DNA of 64,000 bases from positions 27,366,503 to 27,430,502 of the forward strand of contig CM120640.1 of NCBI GenBank assembly GCA_051362555.1. Direction: 5' to 3'. The notes under the pieces are model-generated. The model was not told where the DNA came from, made no database searches, and was given only the letters and a program-made list of their open reading frames with translations. The stretch comes from Lingula anatina. Its lineage: Eukaryota; Animalia; Brachiopoda. This document shows positions 41,352-44,300 of this stretch, piece after piece. The first letter of the stretch is position 1. The number at the start of each line of letters is the position of its first letter. Both the position numbers and the translations under genes were made by a program.

Positions 41352-44300
41352 TTATGACCTAAACAGTAGCATTCTTTGATAACATTTCTTTCCAACAAAC
41401 CCTGCATATTCCTTGACATCGCCCTCATCTCTTGCCCTTGGATTTAGTGCCTTGTACACAGTATAGGGCATTGCTTGTCTTTCAAACAGCACTAAAACTT
41501 CATCCAGGTTTACAACACCGTTCTCGTCAACTGCAGAGGAAAATAAAAACATCAAAAACTGACTCATTCTTAAAAGATATCATCATTTGTTAGCAAGATT
41601 TTATTGTTTACTTGCTATACAGTCTCAAGTAACAAGCTCTCAGAAATAAATAGACCACCATTAATAAAAAAAAAGATAGCCATCTGTTGCTTGAAGATTT
41701 TGACTTCACATAATCAAAATTTATTATTACATGTACCTTTATCTGCATCTTCAAACCTGTTGTACTTTTTAACATCTAGTTTTGGTGTACAAGCTTCAAT
41801 GGGCACCCAAGTGCAAGCTTCAGGACAAAGAAGGAATGAAGGTACATATTGGCCCTAAACAAAAACAAAGCAATGATTCAATAAAAGTCATACATATCTC
41901 ACTTTATAGTATTTATCTTTGGATTAGCACAGGGTTGTAAACTATGTTTGGGATTAAGGATTTCTTAGCTGCTACTAAATTCAGTTTTCTAGTTATAATT
42001 TTTTTCAGTCTTGGATAATGCGTTAAAAATGGATATGTGCATTGTGATAACTATCTACTGTTAAATAAAAAACTACTAGAATTGTATCAGGAAATGTGAG
42101 AACAAACAATTACAATTGAACAAAATCTTACGACATGACAACATTGCTGTACAAACCTTGTATTTCATTTTGGGACATGAATGTATATAAAATCCCATAT
42201 AGTAATATTTTAGATCAGGAGCTTCTTTTTGTAGCGACCTTGTGAAAGCAATTTCCCTGTTAAAAAGATTTTATATGAATATACTCACATCTGTACATGT
42301 AAAATACATTTTTGAAATCCTTACAGTTAAAAAAATTATACAATTCAAACAATACACCACCCCCCTCCCAAGAAAAGTCAATATACACTTTTTCATTAAC
42401 AATACCTACTGGATTTAACACAACATTTATAATAACAGTTGTACAGTAACAGTATGTTCTTCCTTTGGTACCATTAAAGTAATATTACAAGTCAATCTGT
42501 AAGAAAATAAGACAAGAAGTAAACATACCTGAGAGCACTGTATGTCCCTAGATTTAGGAACTCGTAGTCTGGATCATAGTAGAGATAAACAGAGGAAACG
42601 CAGTAAGGTAGAATGTCTATCACTCCCACAGCTATGAGTTTTCCATCCAACCAATATTGTTGGTGAAATGAGCCATATCCACATCGAGGGCCATTGGATG
42701 GTTTTTCAGGCTGTATATTAAACAATGTGATAAAACAATTTTTGAAAGGGTAAGCCTTGTTAATTCTAAATAATTAATTATTTTTAAATCATTCTACAAT
42801 TTGAGAATATAGAAATAAATATATACTAAAATAGGAAATATAAAAAACATTTAGCATTTAGAAAACTATTTAAACATGCAATCCTTTCAAGAGAGTTAAA
42901 AGATGAGAATCATGGTAATTCATCACTGAAACTCACCTCCAAAGGAGAATCGACTAAGAAACTCTTGTAAGTGCTTTTGGTATTTTCATGAGGTTTCTCT
43001 TTGTGAATACCAATCTGATACTTTTTAAAAATTTCATATGATTGTTCATATGAGCTATCAAACTCTGCAGTGTCTCTTGCACTCCTTGCAGTGTGTGGGG
43101 TAGCTACAAGTCTAATCTACAAGGCAACAAAAACTTGTAAATGAGGTGAAGCAAGCCAATATTAGTCATACCTAAGAAAGAAAAACATGAGCAAGGAGTA
43201 TGAGGCCACCATTTTTTCACATGATCAATGTGCAAGATCCTGTAACTTCAAATTTTATCAAGATATATGTATATATATATCAAGAGCAATGGAATTTGAT
43301 AATATTGGGGGGTGGGTGTTTTTTTTCCCCATGATATGGCTTGCTTCATTCATTCAAAGCTTTTGTGTAATTTCACTTCAACTAATACCTGAAGAGGGGA
43401 TTCCACCAAAAAACGTGTGTATTGCTGTTCTGAGGGTTTGCTAGGTGGATCTTTATGTACAACCATTTGGTATTTTTTATATATGCTGTGTGACTCTTTA
43501 AATGTGGCATCAAACTCCTTGCTTCTTGGATTGCTCTGCACTAGTTTAATCTGGAAAGTATGTCATTAAACAAATACCTTTTTTTTAGATCTAATGTCAG
43601 ACGCAAAATTCAAAGTGTCATATTTGATATAATAGTACAAAAACACAAATGTGTGCCCAAAATCAGACAAATTTTAGCTTTATAAACCAAAAAAAAAAAA
43701 AAATTACACGTGCGGGTTATTTCAATTTAATGAACTTTGATTTTGCCTATAATAAATAATTCAACACATGGCATGATTCAAAACTGCTAATACAAATGAT
43801 TACCTCTAATTTATGCTTTGGATTTTCAGCTGATAATTCTTTAAGCCATTGATCTATGGATTTGGGAGAATTACCACTTGGATTTTCCTGTAAAATAGTA
43901 AGTAAACAGTATGAATATATATAAAATATATTATTGCATTGCTTTGTGCCAATTTTACCATTAATAAACAACAATATATTTGCTTCTGAAATAATACCCA
44001 ACAAGATAAAATGATACCACACTTTTTCTGTTGTTGAACTTACCATCAATCCATGTGATTCTGCCTGCCCTTCCTGGTGCACTTTTGCTAACTTTTGTTT
44101 CTTTTTCTCCAACCTGAGTAATTTTGCTTTTTTGCATGGAGGTTTAGTTGGATCTGGACCTTTACCTTTAAAATTCATAATAAACAGAACTATATTAACA
44201 TGAAGTGTGTATGGCTAAGTGATAACTTTGAAACGTCTTCAAGACTTAAAATGACACCTGATTGAGGAAGAAAGACTTTTACCAAAATTATTAGCGTGTT

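What the first reader, a model, noticed from the sequence alone, without database searches (positions are those of the whole stretch)
43147..43348. Second 12-bp perfect stem that closes the A-B intron next to the exon B branch region
Seen: TGAAGCAAGCCA (43147-43158) and TGGCTTGCTTCA (43337-43348) are perfect reverse complements with imperfect extensions on both sides. The stem loops out about 178 nt of the 272-nt intron. Its 3' arm lies 31-42 nt upstream of exon B, next to a branch-like UGACUAAU (43167-43160). The docking element sits inside the loop, so the helices must compete or form a pseudoknot. Exon A also contains GAAGCAAG, which could compete for the 3' arm. Inference: a second layer that sterically prevents A-to-B splicing or sets the isoform ratio.
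Basis: partly seen in the sequence, partly recalled or inferred. Interest (0 to 1): 0.7.

Follow-up and report, generated by a model that had tools for sequence, protein, structure and literature searches.

The report
RNA stem hiding an ATE1 exon
In this brachiopod's ATE1 gene, the intron between two either-or exons is five times longer than in other invertebrates, where it is likely too short to splice, and it is predicted to fold into a long stem that would hide the second exon's entry signals, likely keeping the two exons from being joined.

Summary
The stem is real and larger than reported. The gene is ATE1 (minus strand; exon B matches a protein labelled Lingula anatina at 100%). Exons A and B are 7a/7b-like alternatives. 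The 12-bp core extends to a predicted 29-bp helix (43366-43337 with 43158-43127, -35 kcal/mol; 0 of 1000 shuffles) covering exon B's pyrimidine tract and two branch-point candidates. A second helix, intron element D with exon A (-31), crosses it. In all 27 metagenome loci where both exons were found (about 7 animal lineages), the A-B intron is only 34-65 nt, steric-block size; here it is 272 nt. It splits into 217 nt (GT..AG) plus a terminal 55 nt starting GTATGA, which resembles the ancestral mini-intron behind a recursive-type AG|GT site. A+B stay in frame, so decay cannot police double inclusion. Best reading (0.5): after the intron grew, two crossing helices, one masking B's acceptor and one masking exon A, replaced the steric block, in the position of human R3R4. 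There is no covariation, probing or mutant evidence, and RNA depth is low.

The parts
43337..43366 (-). 5' arm (S5) of the predicted 29-bp helix; 12-bp perfect core at 43348-43337; begins 22 nt after the exon A donor
   Evidence: best partner in the gene is S3 (-35.3), next best -18.6
43127..43158 (-). 3' arm (S3); covers exon B positions -42 to -11: pyrimidine tract and branch candidates at 43147 (-31) and 43142 (-26)
43161..43168 (-). branch-like UGACUAAU (A at 43162, -46 from exon B), inside the loop, overlapping the cryptic donor region
   Evidence: position; use as branch point untested
43117..43171 (-). terminal 55 nt, GTATGA..TGTAG; size of the orthologous A-B mini-introns; inferred ancestral intron
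43166..43190 (-). cryptic acceptor (15 of 17 pyrimidines, AG at 43173-43172) directly followed by a donor-like GTATGA: recursive-type site, use not shown
   Evidence: no joint at this place among those listed
43172..43388 (-). 217-nt segment GT..AG holding S5 and D; inferred lineage-specific insert
   Evidence: -31.0 kcal/mol; 1 of 1000 shuffles
43389..43550 (-). ATE1 exon A (162 nt, 54 codons, 7a-like)
   Evidence: Pfam ATE_C E 4.5e-5; isoforms P0002/P0003; RNA joints 43550/43804 and 42710/43389
42937..43116 (-). ATE1 exon B (180 nt, 60 codons, 7b-like)
   Evidence: 100% to P0001; RNA joint to the next exon, 5 reads
43804..43887 (-). upstream constitutive exon (e6)
42529..42710 (-). downstream constitutive exon (e8)

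Best explanation
The stem is the core of a predicted 29-bp pre-mRNA helix that would cover exon B's pyrimidine tract and likely branch points, and it likely acts as one half of a two-state switch that keeps ATE1 exons A and B from being spliced together in an intron that is no longer short enough to block this sterically. State 1 (inferred): exon A is free or already engaged by splicing factors, S5 pairs S3, B's acceptor is hidden, and e6-A-e8 is made. State 2 (inferred): D, which is transcribed before S3, pairs with exon A, and the crossing S helix is disfavoured, so B's acceptor is open and e6-B-e8 is made. Shown: the complementarity, the exon layout, both isoforms, and the mini-introns of relatives. 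Predicted: helix energies and accessibility. Inferred: that the helices form in vivo, exclude each other and set splicing.
For: (1) The A-B intron is the only strongly folded one of 10 ATE1 introns tested: z -3.6 against -1.25 to +2.3; end-to-end -37.0. (2) Two separately significant antisense blocks sit in one intron: to the terminal 55 nt (0 of 1000) and to exon A (1 of 1000); the sense orientation is null. (3) Each block hides one exon: with S formed, B's tract is 0.18 unpaired against 0.48; with D:A formed, exon A +13..+47 is 0.17 against 0.52. (4) The energies are near balance, -35.0 and -31.0, like human 7b -33.2 and 7a -35.9 (PMC8052449 Table 1). (5) 27 of 27 loci with both exons have a 34-65-nt A-B intron (26 by script; L007, 39 nt, read by eye). 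The largest possible donor-to-branch distance is 13-40 nt in 23 distinct introns, under the ~50-nt threshold (PMC7969005; PMC5740500). Other introns in those loci are about 64-1781 nt, and at least 115 nt in L001-L028 (60 rough estimates). (6) A+B is in frame, yet 4 of 4 named isoforms carry exactly one of them. (7) S3 has the same position as human R4 in the tested R3R4 helix (PMC7797038). (8) Even decay of a neutral inverted copy does not give two 84-88% blocks around an unalignable middle: joint frequency at most 1 of 3000 at six divergences.
Against: No conservation or covariation of the arms was obtained: relatives lack the long intron (blastn to the 53 loci gave no hit), and within-species variation was not seen. 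4 of 235 window tiles hold a perfect stem as stable as the 12-bp core. Nested folding cannot rank the states: D:A wins with the 5' end at 43600 (P(S) 0.00-0.03), S wins with the 5' end at 43700 or 43810. Both helices could coexist as a pseudoknot, which the program cannot score. In the D:A state, B's AG is itself predicted paired (0.03 unpaired). RNA depth is low: no A-B joint is among the 15 listed, but neither is e6-B, and 2 joints were hidden. The blocks and the cryptic-site pattern were chosen after seeing the sequence. The 50-nt threshold comes from vertebrate work. L015 shows no exon B in the 247 nt to its contig end, so it may be a second long intron.
Confidence: 0.5

Rival explanations
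1. Chance hairpin or functionless remnant of a local duplication; exclusivity is kept by proteins, splice-site strength or kinetics.
For: 12 of 235 tiles hold 12-bp stems, 4 as stable. No conservation was shown. The middle of the insert shows no similarity to exon A (1366 of 2000 shuffles score as well).
Against: Two independent significant blocks, each placed over one exon's signals, in the one intron where relatives keep a strict size limit. Uniform neutral decay is rejected in simulation.
Confidence: 0.22
2. Recursive route: the first 217 nt are spliced out at the cryptic AG (43172), which rebuilds exon A + 55-nt mini-intron + exon B with a fresh donor. The ancestral steric block then applies, and the stem would only shield B's acceptor until that first step.
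For: The pyrimidine-tract AG|GT(A/G)(A/T)G pattern occurs once in 128 kb of both strands, here; 1-18 times under looser definitions and 0 at the strictest. Its tract (15 of 17) is the best of 5 acceptors compared, and the donor has the +5 G that exon A's own donor lacks. The remaining 55 nt matches orthologous sizes. With S formed, the cryptic branch candidate is more open (0.73 against 0.34).
Against: No joint at 43172 is among those listed in poly(A)-type reads (weak test). e6 splicing to this AG would skip both exons or hit stops. In human introns under 1,000 nt conventional lariats were preferred (PMC10156609). The pattern was defined after seeing the site.
Confidence: 0.15
3. Pure steric shortening: the helix leaves 22 + 10 nt outside, so the A donor and B's branch region are too close for joint U1/U2 binding, whatever D does.
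For: 32 nt lie outside the helix, close to the 34-65 nt of relatives.
Against: The same helix buries the tract and two branch candidates, so it would block e6-B as well; masking explains the block without geometry. B is used, so the helix must open, and then the donor-to-branch distance is about 227-247 nt.
Confidence: 0.1
4. Ends of a MITE-like element or of an intronic non-coding RNA.
For: About 30-bp imperfect terminal inverted repeats around about 180 nt resemble a MITE (recalled); no whole genome was available to search.
Against: No second copy in the 64-kb window beyond AT-repeat and short chance hits. No Rfam match near its gathering score (best 23.8 bits against 100, E 0.15). The 3' arm is B's own acceptor region.
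Confidence: 0.03

Closest known systems
Human ATE1 R1R3/R3R4 competing helices and R2R5 (Kalinina et al. 2021, PMC7797038; main text read, supplement not readable)
   Same: Same gene and exon pair. An element inside the intervening intron pairs with the region just before the second exon (R3R4 position). Crossing helices. Similar energies (PMC8052449 Table 1).
   Different: Human R3 is one shared site for two similar acceptor-side selectors. Here S5 does not pair with the region before exon A (-7.4); exon A is masked inside its coding part by a separate element D. No R2R5-like distant partner was found in 41200-47200. The human system is tested by mutagenesis; this one is not.
Steric-interference exon pairs: OGDH 4a/4b, alpha-tropomyosin, alpha-actinin (PMC7969005 and PMC5740500, passages read)
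   Same: The orthologous invertebrate ATE1 introns fit this rule (donor to branch at most 13-40 nt), as does the terminal 55 nt here.
   Different: The present intron is 272 nt, with branch candidates about 227-247 nt from exon A's donor, so the linear rule is not met.
Dscam exon 17: steric hindrance combined with RNA structure (Yue et al. 2013; title seen in reference lists; paper not held; content recalled)
   Same: Two-exon cluster in which proximity and masking helices are both invoked.
   Different: As recalled, steric hindrance is kept there; here it appears lost or moved behind an insert.
Origin of competing structures by tandem duplication of one stem arm (Ivanov and Pervouchine 2018, PMC6071210, passages read)
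   Same: Duplication as the source of complementary elements in exon clusters.
   Different: Here the two blocks are antisense to exon A and to the mini-intron and lie on one diagonal once 217 nt are removed, which points to an inverted copy and not a tandem arm copy (suggestive only).
Recursive splice sites (PMC10156609, passages read)
   Same: Pyrimidine tract + YAG|GT with no exon between.
   Different: Here in a 272-nt intron between alternative exons; use not shown.

Membership tests
Docking/selector competing RNA structure (human ATE1 R1R3/R3R4 type) | Tandem homologous exons used one at a time | tested here: met
   A and B align (0 of 1000 shuffles); 4 of 4 named isoforms carry one; both seen in RNA, no A-B joint listed but depth low
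Docking/selector competing RNA structure (human ATE1 R1R3/R3R4 type) | One docking site complementary to two similar selectors, one per exon | tested here: not met
   S5 with the region before exon A -7.4 against -35; D with exon B -24.0 in a scan whose unrelated hits reach -24.2
Docking/selector competing RNA structure (human ATE1 R1R3/R3R4 type) | Helix covers the acceptor region of the exon it silences | tested here: met
   Predicted only: S3 spans -42 to -11 of exon B; tract 0.18 unpaired
Docking/selector competing RNA structure (human ATE1 R1R3/R3R4 type) | Helices exclude each other | tested here: inconclusive
   S and D:A cross and are within about 0-5 kcal/mol of each other in nested models; a pseudoknot with both cannot be scored
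Docking/selector competing RNA structure (human ATE1 R1R3/R3R4 type) | Conservation or covariation of the paired elements | tested here: inconclusive
   Orthologous loci have no long intron to compare; no variation data for close relatives were obtained
Docking/selector competing RNA structure (human ATE1 R1R3/R3R4 type) | Disruption changes splicing and compensation restores it | not testable with these tools
   needs minigenes
Steric-interference exon pair | Donor-to-branch distance under about 50 nt | tested here: not met
   About 227-247 nt from exon A's donor; met only for the cryptic donor (at most 37 nt) and for 23 of 23 distinct orthologous introns
Recursive splice site | Pyrimidine tract + YAG followed directly by a donor | tested here: met
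   43173-43166
Recursive splice site | Lariat or intermediate junction at the site | tested here: inconclusive
   none among 15 listed joints in 4 runs of low depth
MITE | Multiple genomic copies | tested here: inconclusive
   none in the 64-kb window; no genome held
Known Rfam RNA (snoRNA, miRNA) | Score at the family's gathering threshold | tested here: not met
   0 of 8 listed matches near threshold

The most novel reading that the evidence does not exclude
One local inverted duplication of exon A plus the ancestral 55-nt mini-intron landed at exon A's donor and, in a single step, made a new 217-nt intron with a recursive AG|GT site and two crossing helices. This turned a sterically enforced exon choice, apparently ancestral in protostomes, into an RNA-structure switch convergent with human ATE1.
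Probability: 0.25. Interest if true: 0.8.

Novelty: new variant of a known kind. Interest (0 to 1): 0.58.

Why it matters
How a gene moves from one mechanism of mutually exclusive splicing to another without passing through double inclusion is open. ATE1 may give a natural series: mini-introns of steric size in about 7 invertebrate lineages, a tested long-range structure in humans, and here a 272-nt intron that seems to keep the old mini-intron with two masking helices added. The whole module fits in about 1.2 kb, so it is easy to test in a minigene. The searches (listings only) showed no paper on invertebrate ATE1 intron size or on this structure; most subscription papers are not in the library.

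Tried and rejected
A human-like R1 partner for S5 before exon A: -7.4 kcal/mol, rejected. D as a shared docking site for exon B: background level. The insert as a decayed direct copy of exon A or of the mini-intron: 405 and 446 of 1000 shuffles score as well, rejected. Residual inverted similarity in the middle (1366 of 2000) and in the tail (213 of 2000) of the insert: not significant, so the single-inversion idea rests on the diagonal match (86713 observed, 86712 predicted; chance 0.04-0.07) and on the collinear score (0 of 2000, which includes the two chosen blocks). Rfam and a repeat search in the window gave nothing. No RNA holder was listed by index; raw RNA runs of the same species label were laid instead. 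Variation in the arms among individuals was not obtained. No whole genome is held. The exon tree (50 rows, 43 columns) groups first exons with vertebrate 7a only weakly (83/84, 89/81), so one against several duplications stays open. Earlier scan notes: none on this genome; two on other genes, not used. PMC7404189 and PMC11802352 (passages) added nothing. The supplement of PMC7797038 (R1-R5 alignments, intron lengths) could not be read and may bear on the comparison.

Full report
Locus. The finding lies in ATE1 (arginyl-tRNA-protein transferase) on the minus strand. Exons at 43550-43389 (A, 162 nt), 43116-42937 (B, 180 nt) and 42710-42529 (e8) match Pfam ATE_C. Exon B is 100% identical to a protein labelled Lingula anatina. 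Its cluster has 4 named isoforms out of 5 members; each carries A or B, none both. RNA reads from 4 runs in 3 studies show e6-A (11 reads), A-e8 (5) and B-e8 (5, one run). No A-B, e6-B, e6-e8 or mid-intron joint is among the 15 listed; 2 were hidden and listing needs 3 reads, so absence says little. A joined to B stays in frame, so nonsense-mediated decay cannot remove double inclusion.

Observation. The 12-nt arms are exact reverse complements, the loop is 178 nt and the intron 272 nt. 6 of 1000 shuffles give a 12-bp perfect stem and 0 of 1000 one as stable, but 12 of 235 real tiles hold such a stem and 4 are as stable. Folding extends the core to 29 bp (43366-43337 with 43158-43127; pair probabilities 0.96-0.98 for the intron alone), leaving 22 nt at the 5' end and 10 nt at the 3' end. 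The intron folds better than 200 of 200 shuffles (z -3.48). It is the only such case among 10 ATE1 introns tested (end-to-end -37.0 against -8.2 to -17.3). Each arm's best partner in the gene is the other arm (-35 against -18.6 and -22.3).

Neighbouring pairings. Element D (43210-43188), inside the loop, pairs with exon A 43523-43503 at -31.0 (1 of 1000 shuffles). D with exon B is at background level and S5 has no partner before exon A. Exon A's GAAGCAAG pairs with the 3' arm at only -12.7. S and D:A cross. Nested models put them within about 0-5 kcal/mol and the winner depends on where the fragment starts, so folding cannot give a ratio. With S forced, B's tract and the branch candidates at -31 and -26 are 0.18, 0.14 and 0.34 unpaired; with D:A forced they are about 0.5 and exon A +13..+47 falls from 0.52 to 0.17. 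Against a clean picture, B's AG is predicted paired in the D:A state (0.03).

Comparison with other animals. A scan with an exon A alignment gave 53 metagenome loci. I measured 32 (L001-L030, L042, L043). The other 21 were left out because the profile table showed no second exon copy; two of them, L033 and L039, were looked at and show a single 43-codon unit in the DNA held. Of the 32, 26 gave an A-B intron of 34-65 nt (23 distinct) and L007 one of 39 nt read by eye. L023 and L024 seem to have a decayed B, L030 shows no B, L029 is spliced, and L015 has no B in the 247 nt before its contig ends. The 26 fall into about 7 lineages on a quick tree; 17 belong to one clade. Other introns of these loci are about 64-1781 nt (60 rough estimates from 30 loci; at least 115 nt outside L042 and L043). 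The farthest possible branch A is 13-40 nt from the donor, under the ~50-nt steric limit given in PMC7969005 and PMC5740500 (passages). Inference: steric blocking is the ancestral state in these animals and this intron is the exception.

Anatomy of the exception. The intron divides at an AG|GTATGA (43172/43171) into 217 nt with its own GT, branch candidate and strong tract, and a terminal 55 nt of orthologous size. That pattern occurs once in 128 kb, 1-18 times under looser rules and not at the strictest; it was defined after seeing the site. S5 is antisense to the terminal 55 nt and D to exon A. After removing 217 nt the two helices fall on one diagonal to within 1 nt (chance 0.04-0.07). This suggests an inverted copy of exon A plus mini-intron. 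The middle of the copy is at background, so a single inversion is not proven. If it happened, even decay cannot explain the two kept blocks (at most 1 of 3000 simulations), which would mean selection or replacement of the middle.

Mechanism. Most likely (0.5) a two-state switch. When exon A is free or bound by splicing factors, S forms and hides B's acceptor, giving A. When D, which is made first, captures exon A, S is disfavoured and B is exposed. Helix formation in vivo, mutual exclusion and effect on splicing are inferred. Rivals: neutral hairpin (0.22), a recursive step that restores the mini-intron (0.15), pure shortening (0.1), transposon or ncRNA ends (0.03). In human cells the dsRNA-binding proteins ZFR and ILF3 affect ATE1 exon choice (bioRxiv 10.1101/2022.06.15.495552, passages); a role here is speculation.

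Relation to what is known. In human ATE1, R3 in the intervening intron pairs with R4 just before 7b or with R1 just before 7a (PMC7797038, parts 1-5 of 7 read). S sits where R3R4 sits and has similar energy (PMC8052449 Table 1), so it works like it. It fails the shared-docking-site test, so I do not file it as a member. That paper says a 7b homolog is absent in invertebrates. Searches show two copies in molluscs, a nemertean, chelicerates, a centipede, a hemichordate and sea urchins, with a 54-codon unit in protostomes and a 43-codon unit in deuterostomes. This is in print: PMC8373072 reports equivalent exons in octopus and PMC9741552 lists ATE1 in vertebrates, arthropods and nematodes as convergent. 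The mini-intron pattern and this structure were not found in the searches named under Why it matters.

Verdict. A real, larger-than-reported stem with good circumstantial support for a role in exon choice and no direct test. New variant of a known kind; interest 0.58.

Noticed in passing
L001-L028, L042, L043 (A-B introns): The ATE1 A-B intron is 34-65 nt in 27 of 27 loci with both exons, across about 7 lineages, while neighbouring introns are far longer: a conserved steric-size intron that my paper searches did not find described.
   Followed up: yes
window 45258-45381 and 46889-46973 (-): Two homologous first coding exons (46% identical), as with mammalian 1a/1b. RNA joins the upstream one onto the downstream one (45381/46889, 8 reads), which puts the upstream ATG out of frame with an early stop, so it may act as an upstream ORF.
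   Followed up: partly
window 43065-43095 (-): Exon B has 6 codons more than the named protostome B exons compared. The extra stretch looks like local slippage and holds the GCAAGGAGT that can pair with D (10 bp, -16.7).
   Followed up: partly
window 43379-43388 and 43159-43168 (-): Exon A's donor can pair with the branch-like motif over 10 bp with G-U pairs, -8.3 kcal/mol; weak and incompatible with the closed stem.
   Followed up: no
L023:3025-3100, L024: Exon B appears decayed behind a short intron-like stretch (remnant VSDI codons): possible loss of the B isoform in one lineage.
   Followed up: partly
proteins P0008/P0125, P0119/P0128 against P0013, P0147, P0091: The duplicated unit is 43 codons in deuterostomes and 54 in protostomes, yet first copies share K(P/C) and second copies (E/D)C at one site; one or two duplications is unresolved.
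   Followed up: partly
window 46038-46627: Repeat-like stretch in the first intron with a 36-bp inverted repeat (46038-46073 and 46387-46422, 92%) that draws many divergent RNA reads on both strands: probably a transposon fragment.
   Followed up: no
window 40235-40624 and 41148-41232: Three or four diverged copies of an 85-92-nt unit about 150 nt apart, downstream of the gene's stop codon.
   Followed up: no
L001-L027 clade, exon A acceptor and exon B donor flanks: Both flanks often carry a CTGCAT-like word, which might pair with a common partner; not tested.
   Followed up: no
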